This document shows positions 14,587 to 29,343 of a stretch of 64,000 bases of DNA, in pieces (position 1 is the first letter of the stretch; every line of letters starts with the position of its first letter). The DNA is from a virus: the IMG/VR virus record IMGVR_UViG_3300037606_000137, positions 46,381 through 110,380 of that record. One strand, written 5' to 3'. Both the position numbers and the translations under genes were made by a program. The notes beneath the pieces are model-generated. The model had not been told where the DNA came from, ran no database searches, and saw only the letters and a program-made list of their open reading frames with translations.

Positions 14587-15510
14587 ATGTCAAAATTTAA
14601 CATTCATGCAAAATTAACAATAATTGAACAGGATTCAATTGATAAATATTTACAAGAATTGCGTTTAGATAAAACAACTACGCCGTTATCTCGAGCTGAA
14701 CAAAATAGTTTATTTAGTCAATACAAAATGACAGGTGACAAACTAATTAAAGATCGTTTAATTAAATCAAATTTACGATGGGTTATATCTGTTGCAAAAC
14801 AATATACTTATACAAAAGTTAAATTAGCAGATTTAATTAATGAAGGAAATATTGGTATGATTGAAGCAATAGATAAATTTGATGTTTCTCGAGAAACGTC
14901 ATTTATTACATTTGCGACAAATTACATTAGATTAGCTATAACATCATATATTAATGACGTTGCTGTAGATATTCCACAACCAGCTAATCGTTTTAGAATT
15001 AATCGTTTAATTAAAAAAGCATTATTAGATTTAAAAATATGTGGAAACAATACACCATCAGATTATCAATTAGTTGAATATTATGCATCAATTAAAAAAC
15101 AATGTGATCCAATTTTAAGTGTTTCATTATTGAATGAAGTAAGAAACAATTCTAAAGATTTTGTATCAATGCATACAAGTGTATCATCTAGTAGTGAAGA
15201 TTATGAATTAATTGATACATTTAAATCTTCAAAAGAATGGAATGCAGATTTTGAAATGGAAAAAACTGAAAAAACAAATATTTTAAATGAATATTTAAAA
15301 AAACATTTAAATGAGCGTGAATTAGAAATTATAACAATGTCATTTGGTTTAATCACACAACTGTCAATGACAAATGAAGAAATTTCATTTCGAACAGGAT
15401 ATACTCGTGAAAGAGTTGGACAAATCATAAAAGAAGGTGTTAAAAAATTAAGTAAAAATAAAAACATTTTAAATGGTTTAAGTGAAACAAACTATAGCAT
15501 TGTTTCTTAA
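14587..15510 (+). CDS. Sigma-70 family factor (RpoD/RpoS-like)
   Basis: SNLRWVISVAKQY, DLINEGNIGMIEAIDKFD and region-4 TRERVGQI. Confidence 0.92.
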   Translation: MSKFNIHAKLTIIEQDSIDKYLQELRLDKTTTPLSRAEQNSLFSQYKMTGDKLIKDRLIKSNLRWVISVAKQYTYTKVKLADLINEGNIGMIEAIDKFDVSRETSFITFATNYIRLAITSYINDVAVDIPQPANRFRINRLIKKALLDLKICGNNTPSDYQLVEYYASIKKQCDPILSVSLLNEVRNNSKDFVSMHTSVSSSSEDYELIDTFKSSKEWNADFEMEKTEKTNILNEYLKKHLNERELEIITMSFGLITQLSMTNEEISFRTGYTRERVGQIIKEGVKKLSKNKNILNGLSETNYSIVS

Positions 15511-15524
15511 AAAAATAAAATAAT

Positions 15525-15553
15525 AAACCCCACACTTTTATGTGTGGGGTTTA
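15525..15553 (+). terminator. Hairpin terminator
   Basis: AAACCCCACAC-tttta-TGTGTGGGGTTT. Confidence 0.65.
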
Positions 15554-15586
15554 ATTTATATAATTGTTTAGATATTAAAAAAATAT

Positions 15587-16072
15587 ATGGAGAGTAATTA
15601 TACTGATTGTTTACAATATATACCAGATTTAAAAAAATATGTTAAAAAATGTGTAGGCGGAAGTGAATGGGAAGATGTTGTACAAGATACATTGTTATAT
15701 TTATTTTTAAAGTATGATAATATTAATGTTACAAATGTTAAAGGTTTATTAATAAATACATCACTATTTTTTATAAAAAAACATTTATCATATAATAGTA
15801 AAGTAAATACGTGTGAAATTAATGATACAAATATTATTATAGATTATAATAATGCAAATATTAAAATTGGAAAATATAATTCTATTTTAATAGATGATAC
15901 ATTATTTAATAATATTAATAGAGTATCAAAATCTTTATTTATACCATTCCAAATGCAATTAAATGGTAAATCTATAGAAAGTATAGCTAAAGTATTAAAA
16001 ATAAATGAAAACACTATTAAAACACGAATAAGACGGTGTAAGTCTGTATTAAGAGAAAATATAATATTATGA
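15587..16072 (+). CDS. ECF-type sigma factor-like protein
   Basis: WEDVVQDTLL (region 2) and GKSIESIAKVLKINENTIKTRIRR (region 4 HTH). Confidence 0.8.
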   Translation: MESNYTDCLQYIPDLKKYVKKCVGGSEWEDVVQDTLLYLFLKYDNINVTNVKGLLINTSLFFIKKHLSYNSKVNTCEINDTNIIIDYNNANIKIGKYNSILIDDTLFNNINRVSKSLFIPFQMQLNGKSIESIAKVLKINENTIKTRIRRCKSVLRENIIL

Positions 16073-16962
16073 ATAATAAATTAAAATTAGATGATCGTAT
16101 GAAACAATACGAACATATTAATAGAAACTATTTAATTCCTAACATGTATAATGTTATTCGTTTAGATGGTAAAGCTTTTCATACATATACAAAGCAATTT
16201 ATTAAACCATTTGATGATGTATTTATTAATGCAATGAATGAAACTGCAAAATATATATGTGAAACAATGCAAGGTGCAAAATTTGCTTTTGTACAAAGTG
16301 ATGAAATATCTATATATTTTACAGATACTGATAACCATGAACAACAATTATGGTTTGGTGGTAATATACAAAAAATAGTATCAGTAGCAGCATCTAAAGC
16401 AGCAGCAAAATTTAACCAAATTATATTTTTACATAATTCAAAATCTACAATAGAAGAATTACAACAACTACAATTAGCCGAATTTGATGCTCGCGTTTTT
16501 CAATTACCAAACAAACATGAATTATTAAATTGTTTTATTTGGAGACAAGAAGATTGTATTAGAAATAGTGTATCTACTGTAGCACAATATTTTTATTCTA
16601 CAAAAGAATTACATAAAAAAACAGTAAAAGATATGAAAACTATGCTACTTGAAAGTGGTAGAGCATGGGAAAATTATAATTCAAAATATAAAAATGGTAG
16701 ATTTATTTCTAAAGAAATTTATATAAATGATATTTTAGTTGGTGATAATGAAACAGAAATTCGGTACCAACCAGATAATGAAGGTATTTTTAAATCTAAA
16801 TATGGTAGAGCATTACAATTAAACACGTCTGAAAATGATGAAATTGATTGGTGTGATATTAAAATTAAAAAAATGAGATCTTTTTGGAATATTTCTAATG
16901 CTAATATATTTTTAAACGTTAGAGAAACATTAATAAAAAAATATTTTCATAATGATAAATAA
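16069..16962 (+). CDS. Thg1-like tRNA(His) guanylyltransferase / 3'-5' polymerase
   Basis: IRLDGKAFHTYT, FVQSDEIS, FDARVF, WRQEDCIRNSV. Confidence 0.92.
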   Translation: MNNKLKLDDRMKQYEHINRNYLIPNMYNVIRLDGKAFHTYTKQFIKPFDDVFINAMNETAKYICETMQGAKFAFVQSDEISIYFTDTDNHEQQLWFGGNIQKIVSVAASKAAAKFNQIIFLHNSKSTIEELQQLQLAEFDARVFQLPNKHELLNCFIWRQEDCIRNSVSTVAQYFYSTKELHKKTVKDMKTMLLESGRAWENYNSKYKNGRFISKEIYINDILVGDNETEIRYQPDNEGIFKSKYGRALQLNTSENDEIDWCDIKIKKMRSFWNISNANIFLNVRETLIKKYFHNDK

Positions 16963-17338
16963 TACAAATAAATTTATAATTATAAATGATAATCTAATTT
17001 CAATCAGTGATATTGTATTAATTAAACCTGCATTATATCATAATGGATATTCTGCATCATTTTCAATTATATTTAATAATAATAATATTGAATTGAATCA
17101 ATATTATTATTATAATGAGTTTAGTAATAATTATGATAATTCTCCAACAGTCACTAAAAACATTATTAAAAACTCTATATTAGATTTTTTAAATGATGAA
17201 ATATTAAAATTTAAATTTTTATTAATAAATAATGACATTAATAAAAATTTAAATTATTTACAAACAAGTGATTTAAAAGAAAAATATGAAAAATGTGAAA
17301 TTTATGAAAATATGATAAATGATGTTAATAATTTATAA
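16952..17338 (+). CDS. Hypothetical protein
   Basis: Overlap-coupled ORF. Confidence 0.5.
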   Translation: MINNTNKFIIINDNLISISDIVLIKPALYHNGYSASFSIIFNNNNIELNQYYYYNEFSNNYDNSPTVTKNIIKNSILDFLNDEILKFKFLLINNDINKNLNYLQTSDLKEKYEKCEIYENMINDVNNL

Positions 17339-17347
17339 AATAAATAT

Positions 17348-17656
17348 ATGAAAATAATAATAGATAATGATGGTGATGCAATTTTCTTACATAAAGAAAA
17401 TATTAAGAGTATTTCAAAAATAAAAAGTAATAGTTCTTATCTTTATTTTAATGTTAATTGGATAGATGGAGCAGAGAATTCATTTATTTTTGAATATTCA
17501 AATTATGATATGGATAAAGATATTTTATTAAATAAAATATCAAAAATACGTTTAGATATACTTAGTGATTTAAATGGTGGAATTAATCCTGAAATAATGT
17601 TTCCGGAAATTAATTTAAAAAAAGAAATTAAATTAACTACTCATCCAAATATATAA
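17348..17656 (+). CDS. Hypothetical protein
   Basis: ORF in a co-oriented run. Confidence 0.5.
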   Translation: MKIIIDNDGDAIFLHKENIKSISKIKSNSSYLYFNVNWIDGAENSFIFEYSNYDMDKDILLNKISKIRLDILSDLNGGINPEIMFPEINLKKEIKLTTHPNI

Positions 17657-17692
17657 AATAAATATATAAAATAAATAAATAAATAAATAAAT

Positions 17693-18097
17693 ATGGACGT
17701 TTTCCTTGGTGGTACATGTAATAATTCTGAATGGAGAGATGAATTAATACCTTTATTAAATTGTGATTATTTTAATCCTGTTGTAGATGATTGGACAGAA
17801 GATGCACAAAAATTAGAATTACAAAAACGCATAGAATGTGATTTTGTGCTTTATGTAATAACACCAAAAATGACTGGTGTGTATTCATTAGTCGAAGCTA
17901 CAGATGATTCAAATAAGAGACCACAAAGAACTATATTTTGTGTTCTTACAAATGATGATGGTAACGAATTTACAGAATCACAATTAAAGTCATTAGAAAT
18001 GACAAAAAATTTAATTAGAAATAATAATGCTAGAGTTTTTGATACGTTACAAGATATTGCAAGTTTTTTAAATTATATGAATTTGGTACCAAATTAA
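17693..18097 (+). CDS. Nucleoside 2-deoxyribosyltransferase-like protein
   Basis: VFLGGTCNNSEWRDELIP...FNPVVDDWT...GVYSLVE. Confidence 0.75.
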   Translation: MDVFLGGTCNNSEWRDELIPLLNCDYFNPVVDDWTEDAQKLELQKRIECDFVLYVITPKMTGVYSLVEATDDSNKRPQRTIFCVLTNDDGNEFTESQLKSLEMTKNLIRNNNARVFDTLQDIASFLNYMNLVPN

Positions 18098-18164
18098 ACT
18101 TAATTGTTTTTATTCTGTATAATAATTCTAAATAACAAAAATAAAAAGAATTAAAATTATTATT

Positions 18165-18335
18165 ATGGACAAGAATCAAATTTTTACAGAATTAGAAACA
18201 TTATGGGAAGCATTTAAAGCAGAACATGAATCAACAAAGAAAATTGCAGGTGGTAGAGCTAGAAAAGCAATTGGTGAAATGAAAAAATTAGTTACACCTT
18301 ACCGTCAAGCATCTGTTGAAGCAGGAAAATTATAA
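18165..18335 (+). CDS. Small histone-H1-like (Hc1-type) DNA-binding protein, 56 aa; not in the ORF track
   Basis: MDKNQIFTELETLWEAFKAEHESTKKIAGGRARKAIGEMKKLVTPYRQASVEAGKL; the AGxRARKA...K...YRxxS pattern matches Bacteroidota/Chlamydia Hc1-like proteins. Confidence 0.7.
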   Translation: MDKNQIFTELETLWEAFKAEHESTKKIAGGRARKAIGEMKKLVTPYRQASVEAGKL

Positions 18336-18431
18336 AAAATAAATAAAAATTTTTATATATCAAAATAAATTCTTATATTTGTTTTGTAAAAGTAAAAAGG
18401 GAAGAAAAAAAATTAATATATACAATTAAGA

Positions 18432-18591
18432 ATGAAAAATTTATCAAACATATTAGTGGATCGTTATTATGATCGTGAACCGGAGAGATTACTTGGGACT
18501 AACAATGTTATGTGTAAATTTTAATTATTAAAAAGATATTAAATTTTTAAACAAATAACTGAAAAGTCCCTTAGCAATAAGGGACTTTTTT
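18432..18591 (+). promoter_or_regulatory. Putative attenuator 1: leader ORF 18432..18524 (MKNLSNILVDRYYDREPERLLGTNNVMCKF) with antiterminator and terminator ahead of the tRNA cluster
   Basis: GGGACT (18495..18500) is complementary to AGTCCC in the 5' arm of the terminator. Leader codons match the downstream tRNAs. Confidence 0.7.
18562..18591 (+). terminator. Intrinsic terminator 14 nt before tRNA-Glu
   Basis: AAAAGTCCCTTA-GCAA-TAAGGGACTTTT followed by T residues. Confidence 0.9.
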
Positions 18592-18605
18592 ATTTTAAAT
18601 CATAT

Positions 18606-18677
18606 GCTCCTATCGTCTAACGGTCAGGACTCTACCTTTTCAAGGTAGCAATGAGAGTTCGATTCTCTCTGGGAGTA
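18606..18677 (+). tRNA. tRNA-Glu(TTC)
   Basis: Acceptor GCTCCTA/TGGGAGT, anticodon arm CTACC-TTTTCAA-GGTAG, T arm GAGAG-TTCGATT-CTCTC. Confidence 0.92.
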
Positions 18678-18759
18678 CAAAAAATAAATTGTAGTGTACA
18701 ATAGGTGAAATTTGTATATGAATGGTAAGACAGCTCGAGACTGTATTTATTTTTTTTAA

Positions 18760-18839
18760 CTAGATGCTTGAGCAGTTGGTTGAACTCGCCTGTTTTGGGA
18801 ACAGGAGCATTTGCGTAGGTTCGAATCCTACCATCTAGA
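18760..18839 (+). tRNA. tRNA-Pro(TGG), atypical D/variable region
   Basis: Acceptor CTAGATG/CATCTAG, anticodon arm CCTGT-TTTGGGA-ACAGG, T arm GTAGG-TTCGAAT-CCTAC. Confidence 0.85.
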
Positions 18840-19035
18840 CATAAATTATTGATAACAAACAAGTTACAATAAAAAATATATTTACTAGTAATGTTTAGTA
18901 AATTAAAGATAATAGTTGGATAATGAAAATATGAGCTGTAACTTGTATAATAGTAATTATAAGCTAGAATATAGAAATGATATAATATTTAAGTATTATT
19001 ACAGTAAGAAAGAATTAAATTGAATTGAAGTATTT

Positions 19036-19110
19036 TTTATGTGTGGTGTAATTGGATAGGCACGCTTGCGTTGAGTGAGTAGATTATTGGTTCGAATCCA
19101 ATACATGAAA
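19036..19110 (+). tRNA. Degenerate tRNA-like element, identity unresolved
   Basis: Acceptor TTTATGT/ACATGAA, D arm GTGT-AATTGGATAG-GCAC and a perfect T arm, but an abnormal anticodon arm. Confidence 0.5.
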
Positions 19111-19120
19111 CAAAAAATAA

Positions 19121-19191
19121 GGTCCATTGGTGAAATGGTATCATGACTCACTGTCTATGAGTTGTCGTCGGATCGTAACCGGCATGGACCG
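19121..19191 (+). tRNA. tRNA-Asp(GTC)
   Basis: Acceptor GGTCCAT/ATGGACC, anticodon arm ACTCA-CTGTCTA-TGAGT, variant T loop ATCGTAA. Confidence 0.85.
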
Positions 19192-19217
19192 CTAAAGAAA
19201 CAAAAATAATAAAATAA

Positions 19218-19290
19218 GGTCCTGTAGCACAATTGGTAGTGTAACTTGTTGTCTGCGAGATGGTTGACGGTTCGAATCCGTTCAGGACCG
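19218..19290 (+). tRNA. tRNA-Asp(GTC), second divergent copy
   Basis: Acceptor GGTCCTG/CAGGACC, anticodon loop TTGTCTG, T arm GACGG-TTCGAAT-CCGTT. Confidence 0.82.
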
Positions 19291-19386
19291 CAATAAACTG
19301 AGTTAGTGTACTACAAGTTCGAAACTTGTGATCTTGACAAAAAAAAATTAAAAAAGATGAAAAAAATAATAGTAAATAAAAATGTA

Positions 19387-19506
19387 ATGATAAGTGTAAG
19401 AAATATTTCTTATTCATATTATTATAACTTATTGAAATCTCAATGAGACTGAAATTGTATTTTAACAAATTTTAAGTCCTATTGAGAAATCAGTAGGACT
19501 TTTTTT
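19387..19506 (+). promoter_or_regulatory. Putative attenuator 2: Tyr-rich leader ORF 19387..19446 (MISVRNISYSYYYNLLKSQ) with antiterminator and terminator directly before tRNA-Tyr
   Basis: TCTCAATGAGACT (19438..19450, contains the leader stop) pairs at 12 of 13 positions with AGTCCTATTGAGA of the terminator 5' arm and loop. Confidence 0.8.
19474..19506 (+). terminator. Intrinsic terminator 4 nt before tRNA-Tyr
   Basis: AAGTCCTATTGA-GAAA-TCAGTAGGACTT plus T-run. Confidence 0.9.
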
Positions 19507-19510
19507 ATAA

Positions 19511-19553
19511 CCGACAGTATGCAAGTGGTTAAAGCAGGGGGATTGTAAATCCT
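19511..19553 (+). tRNA. tRNA-Tyr(GTA), 5' part of an interrupted gene
   Basis: CCGACAG acceptor strand, D arm TGC-AAGTGGTTAAA-GCA, anticodon arm GGGGA-TTGTAAA-TCCT. Confidence 0.85.
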
Positions 19554-19598
19554 GTTACAGTCAATTCGAATTTAATATATAAAGATAAAAAACTATAT

Positions 19599-20138
19599 AT
19601 GTGTGATTTGAAAAAATGTGAAAATTGTGATAACGATCATAATGGTGATTATGGAAGTGGAAGATTCTGTTCGAATAAATGTGCTAGAGGATTCTCAACC
19701 AAAAATAAACGAAAAGAAATAAATAAAAAAGTAAGTAATACATTACAGTTAAAATTAAATAATGGATTAACAACACAACAAGTAATACAAAAAAAATATG
19801 CAGCTAAACACGCTTCTTATATTAGAGAAACTGAAATAACTACATTATATGATTTAAGTACACGTACAATAAGTAAAATATTAAAAAGATTAAAATTACC
19901 ATGTTCATTATGTAAATGGTATGTTGAAGATGTTGTTGGTGATTTACATCATATAATAGAAAGAAAAAATGGTGGTTCAAACAATCATGATAATTTAACA
20001 TATGTATGTCCTAATTGTCATAGATTAATTCATTCTAATAAAATAGATAATAGTAAAATAATAAATCTTAAAGATTATATTGGTGACGAATGGAAAAAAT
20101 ATTATTATGTAATCAATAAAAAATTAATAAACAAATAA
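19599..20138 (+). CDS. HNH endonuclease inserted in tRNA-Tyr
   Basis: CSLC...HHIIERKNGGSNNHDNLTYVCPNCHRLIH and an N-terminal Zn motif (RFCSNKCA); TAATATATA box at 19573. Confidence 0.9.
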   Translation: MCDLKKCENCDNDHNGDYGSGRFCSNKCARGFSTKNKRKEINKKVSNTLQLKLNNGLTTQQVIQKKYAAKHASYIRETEITTLYDLSTRTISKILKRLKLPCSLCKWYVEDVVGDLHHIIERKNGGSNNHDNLTYVCPNCHRLIHSNKIDNSKIINLKDYIGDEWKKYYYVINKKLINK

Positions 20139-20142
20139 TTTG

Positions 20143-20185
20143 TTCTCTTCGGAGTTCGTAAGTTCAAATCTTACCTGTCGGACCA
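20143..20185 (+). tRNA. tRNA-Tyr, 3' part with encoded CCA
   Basis: Variable arm CTC-TTCG-GAG, T arm GTAAG-TTCAAAT-CTTAC, then CTGTCGG-A-CCA, perfectly complementary to CCGACAG at 19511. Confidence 0.88.
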
Positions 20186-20351
20186 CAACAATTTTAAGTT
20201 GTACTTCTAATTTTATTAAATTAAAACATAAATATGTTGATGTATTTTTGTTTTAATTTTTTTGTTTATATAATTGTATTCATAACAATTTAAACAAAGT
20301 TAAACAATTCATATATAATACTATAGAAAATATAGTAAATATAGTAAAGCT

Positions 20352-27145: not shown

Positions 27146-28636
27146 ATGAAATTAAAATTTGAACCATATTATAATAAGTTGAGTGAAAATATTGCTATAT
27201 CTACTGGATATTTTGAACCGACACATGATGAAATTAATTGGAATGAACATGTAAATTTACCATGTACACCAATTAATTTTTTAAGAGAATGTAATGATAT
27301 TCATAAACCAGCAATATTAATATCTACTGGAGCACATTGTCCAATGCATAAAGGACACATTAGTATTATGACTAATGCCAAAAAATCTGTTGAACAAGCT
27401 GGATATACAGTGATTGGTGGTTATTTATCTCCAGGTCATGATGAATATATTAATCAAAAATTAGGTAATGATGCAATGAACATTTCAAAACGTATGCAAT
27501 GGGCAAATAATTTACTTAATGAAAATAAAAATAATAATTGGTTAGCCATTGATCCATGGGAAGGAGTTTTTGCACCTGGTGCTGTAAATTTCACATCTGT
27601 TGTATATAGATTACAATTGTATATTAAAAAGTTTTACAAACATGCTGAAAATGTAAAAATATTTTTTGTATGTGGTGATGATAATGCGAGATTTATGGTA
27701 CCATTTGAAAATACTGATATAGGTACTGTAATAGCAACACGTCCCAATTATGAAGAAATAAGATTACAATATAAAAATGTATCAACTACAAATAATGTAA
27801 TTTTTGCTGATAGTGGTATAAATACATCTTCTACAGAAGTTCGTAAAAGTAAAGAATATACAGATTTCAAAAATACAAAAGATGTTCAAGCTATTGTTAG
27901 ATTAAAATACGATAGTACAAATCATACAATTTTAAATATATTAAGAGAATATTATTCTAATGTTTGGCCACAATATATAGATAAACAAATTACATCTTTA
28001 AAATTCACAGATTTTAAATATCCAATTATTAATATGGATAGTGAAATTGATTTGGGTACAAAATTAGAAATTTCAAGATTGTATGATAATTTTGGACAAA
28101 AACAATTAGGTTATACAAATAGACCAGGTTCTAAAGATTTAGAAACACAATTTTATGATATTAATAGTCAAGATATAAAAGAATATTATTTATTCGATGA
28201 TGATATTTTTACAGGATCTACAATGAAATATGTTGAAAAATGTTTATCTAATTTTAATATTTTAATTAAAGGCCGATTAAGTTTTATATCTGGAAATACT
28301 GAACACGAAGTTGTAGACATAAAAGATTTTTTAATGTATGATGGTGGTGGATTAGTTACTAAAATCGATAATGAATTAGTACGTATACCATACATTTATC
28401 CTTTTGTTGATCCATCAACTAGAGCAAGTATTAAAAATCCATTACAGTTCTCTATTGATATGTGGAAACAATCAGAAAATTATTATTATAATGTACTTAC
28501 ACCACCAATATTAATTGGTGAACATGAACATCTTAGATATTTAATACAATTGGGATTTAATGCTAATACATCAATGCAAGAAGTGTGTGCATATTATTAT
28601 ACATTTCTAACAAAAATAAAAAATTACGAATTATGA
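27146..28636 (+). CDS. NMNAT-like nucleotidylyltransferase fused to a PRTase-like domain
   Basis: TGAHCPMHKGH, GGYLSPGHDEY, VCGDD and SSTEVR; C-terminal LFDDDIFTGSTM resembles the PRPP-binding loop. Start taken at 27146. Confidence 0.8.
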   Translation: MKLKFEPYYNKLSENIAISTGYFEPTHDEINWNEHVNLPCTPINFLRECNDIHKPAILISTGAHCPMHKGHISIMTNAKKSVEQAGYTVIGGYLSPGHDEYINQKLGNDAMNISKRMQWANNLLNENKNNNWLAIDPWEGVFAPGAVNFTSVVYRLQLYIKKFYKHAENVKIFFVCGDDNARFMVPFENTDIGTVIATRPNYEEIRLQYKNVSTTNNVIFADSGINTSSTEVRKSKEYTDFKNTKDVQAIVRLKYDSTNHTILNILREYYSNVWPQYIDKQITSLKFTDFKYPIINMDSEIDLGTKLEISRLYDNFGQKQLGYTNRPGSKDLETQFYDINSQDIKEYYLFDDDIFTGSTMKYVEKCLSNFNILIKGRLSFISGNTEHEVVDIKDFLMYDGGGLVTKIDNELVRIPYIYPFVDPSTRASIKNPLQFSIDMWKQSENYYYNVLTPPILIGEHEHLRYLIQLGFNANTSMQEVCAYYYTFLTKIKNYEL

Positions 28637-29343
28637 ATTTAATAGAAAAATATAAAAAAGATCCTAATGTATTAAACATATATCAATTTGGTTCTTTCGT
28701 TTATGGTACAAATTCAATAAATTCTGATATAGATTTAATTTTAATAGTTAATGAATATTTTGATTCAGAAAATATTGATGTACACGTTTATACCGTTAAA
28801 GAATTTGAATTATCTTTACAATTGCATGATATTCAATCTATTGAATGTGTATCAGCAGACTATAATTTTTGTTATAAAAAATCAATTAATTTTGAAATAC
28901 CTAAAATTGATTTACAACAATTACGTAAATCGATTTCAACTATTTGTAATAATAGTTATGTTAAGGGTAAAAAGAAATTGATTGTTGCTGGTGATTACGA
29001 TATGTATATTGCAATTAAATCTGTTTTTCATTCATTACGTATTTATGATTATGGTTATCAAATTGCATTGTATGGACATATATACAATTTCGGTTCAGTT
29101 AATTATATTTGGGATGATTTATTAAAACTATCAGAAAAATATAAAAGAGTAGAATTATGGAATCAAATTGAATCTAAATACAAAAAAACATTTAATGAAT
29201 TTGCAACTAAATTTAAAAAAGTTGCACCTAAAGATTTAGATGAAAACGATAAAAGAAAACAATTGGAAAATTTGTTGATAAATACATTTGGAGAATTAAA
29301 TGATACATTAAAATATAGTATTTTATCTATATTTGAAAAATAA
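28633..29343 (+). CDS. Pol-beta-family nucleotidyltransferase
   Basis: FGSFVYGTNSINSDIDLI (GS...DxD). Start taken at 28633. Confidence 0.8.
   Translation: MNLIEKYKKDPNVLNIYQFGSFVYGTNSINSDIDLILIVNEYFDSENIDVHVYTVKEFELSLQLHDIQSIECVSADYNFCYKKSINFEIPKIDLQQLRKSISTICNNSYVKGKKKLIVAGDYDMYIAIKSVFHSLRIYDYGYQIALYGHIYNFGSVNYIWDDLLKLSEKYKRVELWNQIESKYKKTFNEFATKFKKVAPKDLDENDKRKQLENLLINTFGELNDTLKYSILSIFEK

What the first reader, a model, noticed from the sequence alone, without database searches (positions are those of the whole stretch)
18414..18605. Multi-amino-acid attenuator at the head of the tRNA cluster
A TAATATATA box (18414) is followed by a 30-codon leader with the patch GAT CGT TAT TAT GAT CGT GAA CCG GAG AGA, which is GC-rich for this genome. 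It samples Asp, Tyr, Glu and Pro, the four identities of the recognisable downstream tRNAs, plus Arg. Possible helices: protector AACAT-A-TTAGT with ACTAA-CA-ATGTT, antiterminator GGGACT with AGTCCC, and the 12-bp terminator. Inference: one leader integrates several tRNA pools, like the multivalent ilv/thr leaders. The Arg codons predict a current or former tRNA-Arg. The antiterminator core is only 6 bp, so this case is weaker than the Tyr one.
Basis: partly seen in the sequence, partly recalled or inferred. Interest (0 to 1): 0.82.

Follow-up and report, generated by a model that had tools for sequence, protein, structure and literature searches.

The report
Leader-peptide attenuator gating phage tRNAs
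A large uncultured phage places a tiny translated "test" gene and a switchable transcription stop directly in front of a block of tRNA genes. The test gene is written mostly in the amino acids those tRNAs carry, so the phage probably makes the tRNAs when ribosomes read those codons slowly; I found no paper describing this kind of control for tRNA genes.

Summary
The window is part of a 110-kb IMG/VR phage record with 23% GC. A 30-codon ORF (18432-18524) is followed by a 13-bp hairpin with a T-run (18561-18596). That run ends 10-15 nt before tRNA-Glu, so there is no room for a promoter in between.

Three diverged syntenic relatives (flanking proteins 50-69% identical) keep the whole unit:
- the open frame, with in-frame indels
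- the D/R/Y/E/P codon patch
- a terminator with compensatory changes
- a 6-8 nt segment at the same ORF position that covaries with the terminator's 5' arm

The ORF RNA also folds into a conserved "protector" structure (z -2.0 to -3.7).

The Asp/Glu/Pro/Tyr match of this leader is weak on its own (corrected p 0.09; the Arg codons are unexplained). The same architecture recurs with other codon lists that match other tRNA sets:
- Tyr run, then tRNA-Tyr
- KNFNKHNNFNFKFWN, then Trp, Asn, Phe, His, Lys
- NWNDWNNDRN, then Trp, Asp-like, Asn
- YHRSSSLQPYQHSCP, then Cys, Pro, Ser, Tyr, Arg, Gln, His, Ser

Best reading: a ribosome-mediated transcription attenuator for a tRNA operon (about 0.75). It rests on comparative evidence only. 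Other agents of this scan reported the same design on other phage DNA. I found no published description.

The parts
18374..18381 (+). Promoter-like -7 box TATATTTG (Bacteroidota TAnnTTTG type)
   Evidence: Invariant in the alignment of the four orthologous leaders. The same motif precedes the paralogous leader L3 and the G002 leader. That it is a promoter is an inference from the published Bacteroidota consensus, recalled from my own knowledge.
18413..18422 (+). TTAATATATA box, 10 nt before the ATG
   Evidence: Present in the sequence. An AATATATA-like box is conserved in L013, L170, L094 and before L3. It is not enriched genome-wide. Its role, as phage promoter or AU-rich translation-start region, is undecided.
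18432..18524 (+). Leader ORF, 30 codons (MKNLSNILVDRYYDREPERLLGTNNVMCKF)
   Evidence: It is open in the same frame in L013 (31 aa), L170 (36 aa) and L094 (30 aa) with in-frame indels, while the other frames are closed. 19 further peptide clusters of 29-36 aa exist in the public protein library.
18459..18488 (+). Codon patch D R Y Y D R E P E R (candidate sensing codons)
   Evidence: A 27-nt core is identical in L013 and 25/27 identical in L170. Pro17 is invariant, and Tyr13 and Glu16 nearly so, across 21 family members. Identical residues keep the same codon far more often than in the flanking genes (10/12 against 26/83 versus L094).
18436..18457 (+). 5' strands of protector helices P1-P3 (codons 2-9)
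   Evidence: These strands pair in the minimum-energy fold and in the RNAalifold consensus of the four orthologues. That consensus has 27 pairs, 5 of them with changes on both sides.
18480..18497 (+). Inner hairpin: CCGGAG pairs with CUUGG and ties up the first G's of the antiterminator segment
   Evidence: Present in the minimum-energy folds of all four orthologues.
18495..18500 (+). Antiterminator segment GGGACT (codons 22-23)
   Evidence: RNAduplex of ORF region against terminator 5' arm: -10.9 kcal/mol, p=0.032. The orthologues pair at the same alignment columns with different letters: TTGGGACT/AGTCCCAA, TCAGGT/GCCTGA and ACCTGGG/CCCAGGT.
18498..18522 (+). 3' strands of protector helices P3-P1; overlaps ACT of the antiterminator segment and reaches the stop codon
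18561..18596 (+). Intrinsic terminator: 13-bp hairpin plus T-run, ending 10 nt before tRNA-Glu
   Evidence: 13 pairs, 4 G-C, loop of 4. Hairpin energy is -13.6 kcal/mol. It is conserved in the relatives with compensatory changes (TTA/TAA in the window, AAA/TTT in L013) and with wholly different stems in L170 and L094.
18606..18678 (+). tRNA-Glu(UUC)
   Evidence: ARAGORN; Rfam tRNA, 60 bits.
18760..18840 (+). tRNA-Pro(UGG), 81 nt
   Evidence: Rfam, 40 bits.
19036..19111 (+). Atypical tRNA-like gene of uncertain identity
   Evidence: ARAGORN calls Gln(UUG), with G at position 33 and three G-U pairs in the anticodon stem. Infernal gives no tRNA hit there even at E<=10.
19121..19192 (+). tRNA-Asp(GUC)
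19218..19291 (+). tRNA-Asp(GUC), second copy
19357..19508 (+). Second, nested gate: 29-codon leader with YSYYY, an antiterminator spanning its stop codon (19437-19451), and a terminator (19474-19501 plus T-run) directly before the tRNA-Tyr 5' part (from 19511)
   Evidence: Antiterminator duplex is -13.8 kcal/mol, with 0 of 500 shuffles reaching it. It is conserved before tRNA-Tyr in L170 (YSYYY) and L094 (YYYYY). In folds of the nascent RNA the antiterminator is lost only when the ribosome reaches the last codons.

Best explanation
The stretch is a ribosome-mediated (leader-peptide) transcription attenuator at the head of a phage tRNA operon.

Proposed mechanism:
1. Transcription starts upstream of the leader, probably at the conserved TAnnTTTG box.
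2. The 30-codon leader is translated while RNA polymerase moves on toward the terminator, which sits 10-15 nt before tRNA-Glu.
3. If the ribosome runs through the leader quickly, the leader RNA refolds behind it into the conserved protector structure. In this fold codons 2-9 pair with codons 23-30, and CCGGAG pairs with CUUGG. This ties up GGGACU, so the terminator hairpin forms and little transcript reaches the tRNAs.
4. If the ribosome lingers on the Asp/Arg/Tyr/Glu/Pro codons (codons 10-18) because the matching charged tRNAs are scarce, it covers the 5' strands of the protector. GGGACU is then free to pair with AGUCCC, the terminator's 5' arm. The terminator cannot form, and polymerase reads into tRNA-Glu, -Pro, the two -Asp genes and on to a second Tyr-specific gate before tRNA-Tyr.
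5. The phage tRNAs then relieve the stall, giving negative feedback.

Shown by sequence and comparison: the ORF, the terminator, the covarying alternative pairings, and the codon/tRNA correspondence across several leaders. Inferred: translation of the leader, stalling, regulated read-through and the promoter.
For: 1. Geometry. A strong intrinsic terminator ends 10-15 nt before the first tRNA with no room for a promoter, and this holds in all four orthologues.

2. Conserved translated frame. Three syntenic relatives (Thg1-like 50-55%, deoxyribosyltransferase-like 54-65% and Hc1-like 50-69% identical) keep the ATG, the frame and the stop, with 3-nt and about 21-nt in-frame indels. The other frames are closed. 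19 more peptide clusters of 29-36 aa exist in public data, with the D/Y/R/E/P core conserved.

3. Terminator and antiterminator covary. The pairs are GGGACU/AGUCCC, UUGGGACU/AGUCCCAA, UCAGGU/GCCUGA and ACCUGGG/CCCAGGU, all at the same ORF columns. Shuffle p values are 0.032, 0.002, 0.044 and 0.014.

4. Protector fold. z-scores are -2.06, -3.71, -2.05 and -2.76. The RNAalifold consensus has 5 pairs with changes on both sides.

5. Codon-level conservation beyond protein need.

6. The logic generalises to leaders that were found by position, not by codon content.
- Window L2: YSYYY, then tRNA-Tyr.
- Same genome L3 (L005): residues 2-16 all in K, N, F, H, W, then Trp, Asn, Phe, His, Lys x2.
- L122: NWNDWNNDRN, then Trp, a tRNA-like gene with GUC in the anticodon loop, Asn.
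- G002: YHRSSSLQPYQHSCP, then Cys, Pro, Ser, Tyr, Arg, an atypical Arg or Leu, Gln, His, Ser.
- Corrected p values are 1e-2, 5e-7, 4e-6 and 1.5e-5. In a leader-by-tRNA-set matrix each leader scores best with its own set.
- All ten leaders show antiterminator complementarity at p<=0.076.

7. Of about 35 tRNA-upstream regions screened in other loci, only three had a terminator-like hairpin, and all three had a codon-matched ORF.
Against: - There is no experimental evidence of any kind. Host, promoter, translation and read-through are all inferred.
- This leader on its own is the weakest case: 7 of 9 residues in D/E/P/Y, corrected p=0.09.
- Two or three Arg codons (CGT, CGT, AGA) have no recognised cognate tRNA downstream. 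Arg is nevertheless conserved across the peptide family, so that part of the patch may serve RNA structure instead.
- ARAGORN's 'Gln' tRNA has no Gln codon in the leader.
- The antiterminator is only 6 bp here.
- GGGACU lies inside the ORF, 22 nt before the stop. A terminating ribosome therefore does not mask it, and termination must rely on refolding of the protector. A ribosome stalled on the last patch codons (Pro, Glu) would itself begin to cover GGGACU.
- Equilibrium folds of the nascent RNA do not cleanly separate the two states for the L1 type. The decision would have to be kinetic.
- The N- and C-terminal peptide motifs (MKNLxNIS... and ...VLSxF) are conserved across 50%-identity clusters. 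This could also mean a functional micro-protein, although these codons are the two strands of helices P1-P3.
Confidence: 0.75

Rival explanations
1. The ORF encodes a real, conserved 30-aa micro-protein. The hairpin is simply its terminator (and that of the Hc1-like gene), and it leaks constitutively into the tRNA genes. The codon/tRNA match would be coincidental.
For: The peptide family is conserved over its whole length in 19+ clusters, including N- and C-terminal motifs. In-frame indels are what a coding gene shows. The codon enrichment of this leader alone is not significant.
Against: - This does not explain why a segment inside the ORF covaries with the terminator 5' arm in four lineages.
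- It does not explain why identical residues keep identical codons far more than in the neighbouring genes.
- It does not explain why unrelated leaders of the same build list exactly the amino acids of their own downstream tRNAs.
- There is no Pfam match.
- The conserved termini are the two strands of helices P1-P3.
Confidence: 0.1
2. The stretch is a translation-independent RNA switch or processing element. The conserved leader RNA would bind a factor (protein, tRNA or small molecule) that decides between the terminator and antiterminator folds, as in T-box or PyrR-type attenuators. The open frame would be incidental.
For: There is strong nucleotide-level conservation of the 27-nt core, including the unusual codons CCG and GAG in a 23% GC genome. 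The leader fold is significantly stable. A related GATCGGAACC...CCGG motif is present in the L122 leader, whose tRNA set differs.
Against: - The ATG, the stop and the open frame are maintained through indels in four lineages, and peptides of 29-36 aa occur family-wide.
- The variable part of the different leaders is a codon list that matches tRNA identity, which only makes sense if it is decoded.
- No T-box or other cis-regulatory Rfam family reaches threshold. PyrR and PyrG_leader score far below gathering, and only on the second hairpin.
Confidence: 0.08
3. Chance: a spurious ORF in an AT-rich spacer lying next to an ordinary terminator.
For: A 30-codon open frame has roughly 6% probability in random sequence of this composition (my estimate). 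A 6-nt complement is short.
Against: The whole unit is conserved in three diverged relatives and 19 peptide clusters, with covariation.
Confidence: 0.02

Closest known systems
Multivalent leader-peptide attenuators of enterobacterial amino-acid operons (thrL for Thr/Ile; ilvL and ivbL for Ile/Leu/Val)
   Same: Both have a short translated leader with clustered codons for several amino acids. Both have an intrinsic terminator before the first structural gene, with mutually exclusive terminator, antiterminator and protector pairings set by ribosome position. Several aminoacyl-tRNA pools are integrated by one leader.
   Different: The controlled genes are tRNA genes, not biosynthetic enzymes, so the sensed quantity and the product are the same kind of molecule (direct feedback on tRNA supply). 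The element is phage-borne, probably in a Bacteroidota host. The antiterminator strand lies inside the ORF, well before the stop. There is no sequence relationship.
Single-amino-acid leaders trpL, hisL, pheL, leuL
   Same: The nested second gate in the window (YSYYY, terminator, tRNA-Tyr) has the simple form: a run of one codon and an antiterminator that the ribosome masks when it reaches the stop.
   Different: The target is a tRNA gene. In the folds, the untranslated state favours read-through rather than super-attenuation.
pheM leader of pheST (an aminoacyl-tRNA synthetase operon under leader-peptide attenuation)
   Same: A gene of the translation apparatus is controlled by ribosome stalling on cognate codons.
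   Different: The product is a synthetase, not the tRNA. I checked E. coli pheV (tRNA-Phe) for a leader ORF, because I vaguely recalled one, and found none.
T-box riboswitches
   Same: Both use transcription attenuation that reads out the state of a specific tRNA and controls translation-related genes.
   Different: T-boxes bind uncharged tRNA directly through a specifier codon and the T-box motif, without translation. No T-box match is found here, and an open frame is conserved.
Earlier notes of this scan on other phage genomes (e1-3411523, e1-5368892, e1-5402871, e1-5806396, e1-5766206, e1-5759923, e1-5765779)
   Same: They describe the same design: a codon-matched leader ORF plus terminator in front of phage tRNA blocks, mostly in Bacteroidota-type large phages.
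   Different: They concern other genomes. They are AI notes that I did not check. My reading was reached before I saw them.

Membership tests
Leader-peptide (ribosome-mediated) transcription attenuator | Short ORF with start and stop in the 5' leader of the controlled genes | tested here: met
   ORF 18432-18524. The frame is conserved in L013, L170 and L094, and the other frames are closed.
Leader-peptide (ribosome-mediated) transcription attenuator | Clustered codons for the amino acid(s) whose charged tRNA is sensed, related to the operon's product | tested here: inconclusive
   For this leader alone, 7 of 9 residues fall in D/E/P/Y, with corrected p=0.09 and Arg unmatched. The feature is clearly met in the orthologues (p 0.003-0.005) and in sister leaders (p 1e-2 to 5e-7). 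The own-set against other-set matrix is diagonal.
Leader-peptide (ribosome-mediated) transcription attenuator | Intrinsic terminator between the leader ORF and the first controlled gene | tested here: met
   13-bp hairpin plus T-run at 18561-18596, 10 nt before tRNA-Glu. Conserved with compensatory changes.
Leader-peptide (ribosome-mediated) transcription attenuator | Antiterminator pairing that competes for the terminator's 5' arm | tested here: met
   GGGACU:AGUCCC, p=0.032. It covaries in three orthologues at the same columns (p 0.002-0.044).
Leader-peptide (ribosome-mediated) transcription attenuator | Protector (anti-antiterminator) pairing whose 5' strand lies in or near the sensing codons, so that ribosome position decides | tested here: met
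   Helices P1-P3 and the CCGGAG:CUUGG hairpin are present in all four minimum-energy folds. z-scores are -2.0 to -3.7, and 5 pairs show changes on both sides. The geometry is plausible but not ideal.
Leader-peptide (ribosome-mediated) transcription attenuator | Read-through rises when the cognate charged tRNA is limiting and depends on leader translation | not testable with these tools
   Needs reporter, Term-seq or coupled in vitro assays.
T-box riboswitch | Stem I with specifier loop and the conserved T-box sequence (Rfam model) | tested here: not met
   There is no T-box hit at gathering threshold over the window, nor at E<=10 over 18600-20250. The leader itself (18336-18605) was covered only by the gathering-threshold search.
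Intrinsic (Rho-independent) terminator | G+C-containing hairpin immediately followed by a U-run | tested here: met
   13 pairs, 4 G-C, loop of 4, T-rich tail. Hairpin energy -13.6 kcal/mol.

The most novel reading that the evidence does not exclude
This leader is one gate of a modular, codon-addressed control system in large Bacteroidota-type phages. Each tRNA block sits behind a translated 'checklist' of its own codons, and gates can be nested (L1, then the Tyr gate). The phage would sense in real time which charged tRNAs the infected cell lacks, whether from codon-usage mismatch, host shut-off or host anticodon nucleases, and would transcribe just those replacement tRNAs. That would be an inducible, self-limiting tRNA supply or counter-defence circuit.
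Probability: 0.45. Interest if true: 0.9.

Novelty: new variant of a known kind. Interest (0 to 1): 0.8.

Why it matters
- tRNA genes are textbook examples of growth-rate and stringent control, not of attenuation, and phage tRNA genes are usually treated as constitutively co-expressed cargo.
- A leader that reads out the very codons served by the downstream tRNAs would be direct feedback control of tRNA supply.
- It would explain how phages sort tRNA genes into blocks.
- It would give a testable link between phage tRNAs and host tRNA depletion or tRNA-cleaving defences.
- It would extend leader-peptide attenuation to a new class of target genes, and to Bacteroidota-type phages.
- The codon list can also be used to predict the identity of atypical phage tRNAs that standard tools miss. 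Here the Asp codons in the L122 leader pointed to a tRNA-like gene with GUC in its anticodon loop that ARAGORN's default run had skipped.

Tried and rejected
The closest relatives (75-78% identical neighbour protein, from Logan and ENA assemblies) and the DNA behind the 19 leader-peptide clusters could not be fetched.
- **Single-protein scans of viral contigs** with the two neighbour genes found nothing.
- **The loose pattern TCCGGTTCN{1,4}TCATAA** hit 118+ unrelated contigs, none with a tRNA nearby. That scan was wasted.
- **Strict core patterns** found only L013 in viral contigs and nothing in genome contigs.
- **A profile of the YEEPDR subgroup** found no relative in viral contigs. The full 21-member alignment was too variable to search with.
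- **The search for homologous proteins** refuses queries under 40 aa.
- **nhmmer with the leader alignment** found no further copies in about 290 held loci.
- **Loci found through the tRNA-Glu word** (L009-L012) are unrelated phages without leaders.
- **A recalled precedent** (a leader ORF before E. coli tRNA-Phe pheV) is not supported by the K-12 sequence. The 1985 paper could not be opened.
- **TTAATATATA as a genome-wide phage promoter** was rejected as unproven, because its count equals chance.
- **Reading the atypical tRNA at 19036-19111 as tRNA-Arg(GCG)**, which would explain the CGT codons: one register allows it, but the D-arm then fails. I left it undecided.
- **Equilibrium folds of nascent RNA with a masked ribosome footprint** separate the two states well for the Tyr-type leaders but not for the L1 type.
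- **Literature:** six full-text searches found no description of leader-peptide attenuation of tRNA genes.

Full report
**What the window is.** The window is bases 46381-110380 of a 110-kb IMG/VR virus record that CheckV estimates to be 28% complete. It has 23% GC. Genes upstream of the finding, all on the + strand, encode two sigma-70-like proteins, a Thg1-like tRNA-His guanylyltransferase homologue, a nucleoside deoxyribosyltransferase-like protein and a 56-aa Hc1-like protein. Weak DNA similarity points to Lak-type Prevotella megaphages. Promoter-like TAnnTTTG boxes suggest a Bacteroidota host; that is an inference.

**Observation.**
- The TTAATATATA box lies at 18413-18422.
- The 30-codon ORF is 18432-18524, with the patch GAT CGT TAT TAT GAT CGT GAA CCG GAG AGA.
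- GGGACT (18495-18500) is complementary to AGTCCC in the 5' arm of a 13-bp hairpin (18561-18590).
- The hairpin is followed by a T-run, and tRNA-Glu starts at 18606.

ARAGORN and Rfam find tRNA-Glu, tRNA-Pro and two tRNA-Asp genes. ARAGORN also finds an atypical gene that it calls Gln. Infernal does not recognise that gene at all. A second hairpin with the same AAGTCC...GGACTTTTT frame precedes the tRNA-Tyr 5' part. Zero such pairs are expected by chance.

**Conservation.** Scans using a profile of the neighbouring deoxyribosyltransferase-like protein fetched three syntenic lineages:
- L013 (the same contig as L095)
- L170 (the same sequence as L160)
- L094

Their flanking proteins are only 50-69% identical to the window's. 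Each keeps the same order: Hc1-like gene, TAtaTTTG box, AATATATA box, a small ORF of 30-36 codons, a hairpin with a T-run, and then immediately a tRNA cluster of Pro, Glu and Asp. In L170 and L094 a second small ORF, a hairpin and tRNA-Tyr follow.

Further points on conservation:
- The leader frame alone is open in all four; indels are 3 nt and about 21 nt, in frame.
- A 27-nt core is identical in L013 and 25/27 identical in L170.
- Identical residues keep the same codon in 10 of 12 cases against L094, compared with 26 of 83 in the neighbouring gene. Selection therefore acts on the nucleotides as well.
- A profile search of 1.84 billion representative proteins found 19 further 29-53-aa peptides of this family. 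Pro17 is invariant, and Tyr13 and Glu16 nearly so.

**RNA structure.**
- Terminator. The terminator stems differ between lineages but are always followed by a T-run next to the first tRNA.
- Antiterminator. At the same alignment columns of the ORF, 3-4 codons after the patch, each lineage has a segment complementary to its own terminator 5' arm. The pairs are GGGACU/AGUCCC, UUGGGACU/AGUCCCAA, UCAGGU/GCCUGA and ACCUGGG/CCCAGGU. Dinucleotide-shuffle p values are 0.032, 0.002, 0.044 and 0.014.
- Protector. The ORF RNA is more stable than shuffles (z -2.06, -3.71, -2.05, -2.76). It folds the same way in all four. Codons 2-9 pair with the last codons (helices P1-P3, five pairs with changes on both sides). 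CCGGAG pairs with CUUGG, which sequesters the antiterminator strand.

**Codon-to-tRNA match.** Taken alone, this leader is weak: 7 of 9 residues fall in D/E/P/Y, with corrected p=0.09. The orthologues do better (0.005 and 0.003). The decisive support comes from sister units that I found by position or by promoter similarity, not by codon content.

| Leader | Where | Codon list | Downstream tRNAs |
|---|---|---|---|
| L2 | window 19357-19446 | YSYYY | tRNA-Tyr; conserved in L170 (YSYYY) and L094 (YYYYY) |
| L3 | same record, outside the window (G000:C1 about 28939-29080, minus strand; L005) | residues 2-16 KNFNKHNNFNFKFWN | Trp, Asn, Phe, His, Lys, Lys |
| L122 leader | L122, an unrelated contig of about 45% GC | NWNDWNNDRN | Trp, a tRNA-like gene with GUC in its anticodon loop (missed by ARAGORN's default run), Asn |
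| G002 leader | G002, a 184-kb viral contig | YHRSSSLQPYQHSCP | Cys, Pro, Ser, Tyr, Arg, an atypical gene read as Arg or Leu, Gln, His, Ser |

In the G002 leader 14 or 15 of the 15 residues are matched, depending on how the atypical gene is read. Corrected p values for these four are 1e-2, 5e-7, 4e-6 and 1.5e-5. In a matrix of leaders against tRNA sets, each leader scores best with its own set. All ten leaders show antiterminator complementarity at p<=0.076. Of about 35 tRNA-upstream regions screened in other loci, only three had a terminator-like hairpin, and all three had such an ORF.

**Mechanism (inferred).**
- A fast ribosome clears the leader. The protector refolds, GGGACU is tied up, the terminator forms, and few transcripts reach the tRNAs.
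- A ribosome lingering on codons 10-18 covers the protector's 5' strands. GGGACU then pairs with the terminator's 5' arm, and polymerase reads into the tRNAs. The new tRNAs relieve the stall.
- No promoter-like box lies between tRNA-Asp and the second leader. The Tyr gate is therefore probably nested inside this operon, which would explain the Tyr codons in the first leader.

Caveats on the geometry:
- GGGACU lies 22 nt before the stop, so a terminating ribosome does not mask it.
- A stall on the last Pro or Glu codons would start to cover GGGACU.
- Equilibrium folds with a masked footprint do not separate the two states for the L1 type, though they do for the Tyr type. The choice must be kinetic.

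**Unexplained.**
- The Arg codons (CGT, CGT, AGA) have no recognised cognate tRNA here. Yet Arg is conserved in the family core, and the CGT codons take part in the GAUCGU/AUGAUC hairpin. They may be structural, or they may reflect a lost tRNA-Arg.
- In G002 a tRNA-Arg(ACG) sits next to tRNA-Tyr and its leader has an Arg codon.
- The atypical tRNA at 19036-19111 is undecided.

**Comparison with what is known.** The element works like the multivalent thr and ilv leaders. It meets the structural criteria of a leader-peptide attenuator, but the controlled genes are tRNAs. There is no T-box or other Rfam cis-regulatory match. E. coli pheV has no leader ORF. Six full-text searches found no description of such control of tRNA genes. 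The library does not hold most subscription journals, so absence there is not proof.

After reaching this reading, I found that other agents of this scan had reported the same design in at least seven other phage genomes. I did not check those notes.

**Verdict.** It is a new variant of a known mechanism. Confidence is about 0.75 and interest is 0.8.

This prevented the best remaining test, which is whether variant codon lists track variant tRNA content in the closest relatives.

Noticed in passing
window 19357-19508: Second, nested gate. A 29-codon ORF with YSYYY has an antiterminator spanning its stop codon, and its terminator ends 4-10 nt before tRNA-Tyr. It is conserved in L170 (YSYYY, then two tRNA-Tyr) and L094 (YYYYY, then two tRNA-Tyr). 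In folds the antiterminator is lost only when the ribosome reaches the last codons.
   Followed up: partly
outside the window: G000:C1 about 28090-29120, minus strand (L005:535-1560): Third unit in the same phage. It has a TATATTTG box, a TTTAATATATAA box and a 25-codon ORF whose residues 2-16 are all K, N, F, H or W. A hairpin with a T9 run follows, then tRNA-Trp, Asn, Phe, His and two Lys. A 9-codon ORF (MKTIKQYKQ) also sits just before the two tRNA-Lys genes.
   Followed up: partly
window 19511-20187: tRNA-Tyr appears split. The 5' part runs to about 19566 and the 3' part covers about 20140-20187, separated by an HNH endonuclease ORF (19599-20138, Pfam HNH). In L013 the homologous HNH gene instead abuts tRNA-Glu. 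I did not test whether the insert is an intron or the tRNA is dead.
   Followed up: no
window 19036-19111: ARAGORN calls this tRNA-like gene Gln(UUG). The model has G33, an extra base before the D stem and a G-U-rich anticodon stem. Infernal gives no tRNA hit. Another register would place GCG (Arg) in the anticodon, but it spoils the D arm.
   Followed up: partly
window 19121-19291: Both tRNA-Asp copies have a pyrimidine at position 37 (loops CUGUCUA and UUGUCUG). The first has an unusual T loop (GGAUCGUAACC). The same traits recur in L170's tRNAs.
   Followed up: no
window 14587-18335: The tRNA block lies in a conserved neighbourhood: two sigma-70-like genes (14587-15510, 15587-16072), a Thg1-like gene (16069-16962), a nucleoside deoxyribosyltransferase-like gene (17693-18097) and a 56-aa Hc1 histone-like gene (18165-18335). 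The Thg1-like, deoxyribosyltransferase-like and Hc1-like genes are syntenic in L013 and L170; in L094 the search matched the latter two and ORF 17348-17656, but not the Thg1-like gene.
   Followed up: partly
L122:6897-6977: A tRNA-like gene with CUGUCAC in the anticodon loop (GUC, Asp by my reading). ARAGORN's default run missed it, and relaxed settings called it with an odd 4-base anticodon. Its existence was suggested by the Asp codons in the leader.
   Followed up: partly
protein P0135 (public library, 53 aa): This leader-family peptide has an N-terminal extension that reads like a translated tRNA T-arm (GGSNPSP). This suggests that in that genome the leader follows directly after another tRNA gene.
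   Followed up: no
window 18679-18759 and 18841-19035: Two spacers inside the tRNA block (81 and 195 nt) have no recognised gene. The first ends in a T8 run closed by a long A/U helix, and the second folds into several AU-rich hairpins. Their function is unknown.
   Followed up: no
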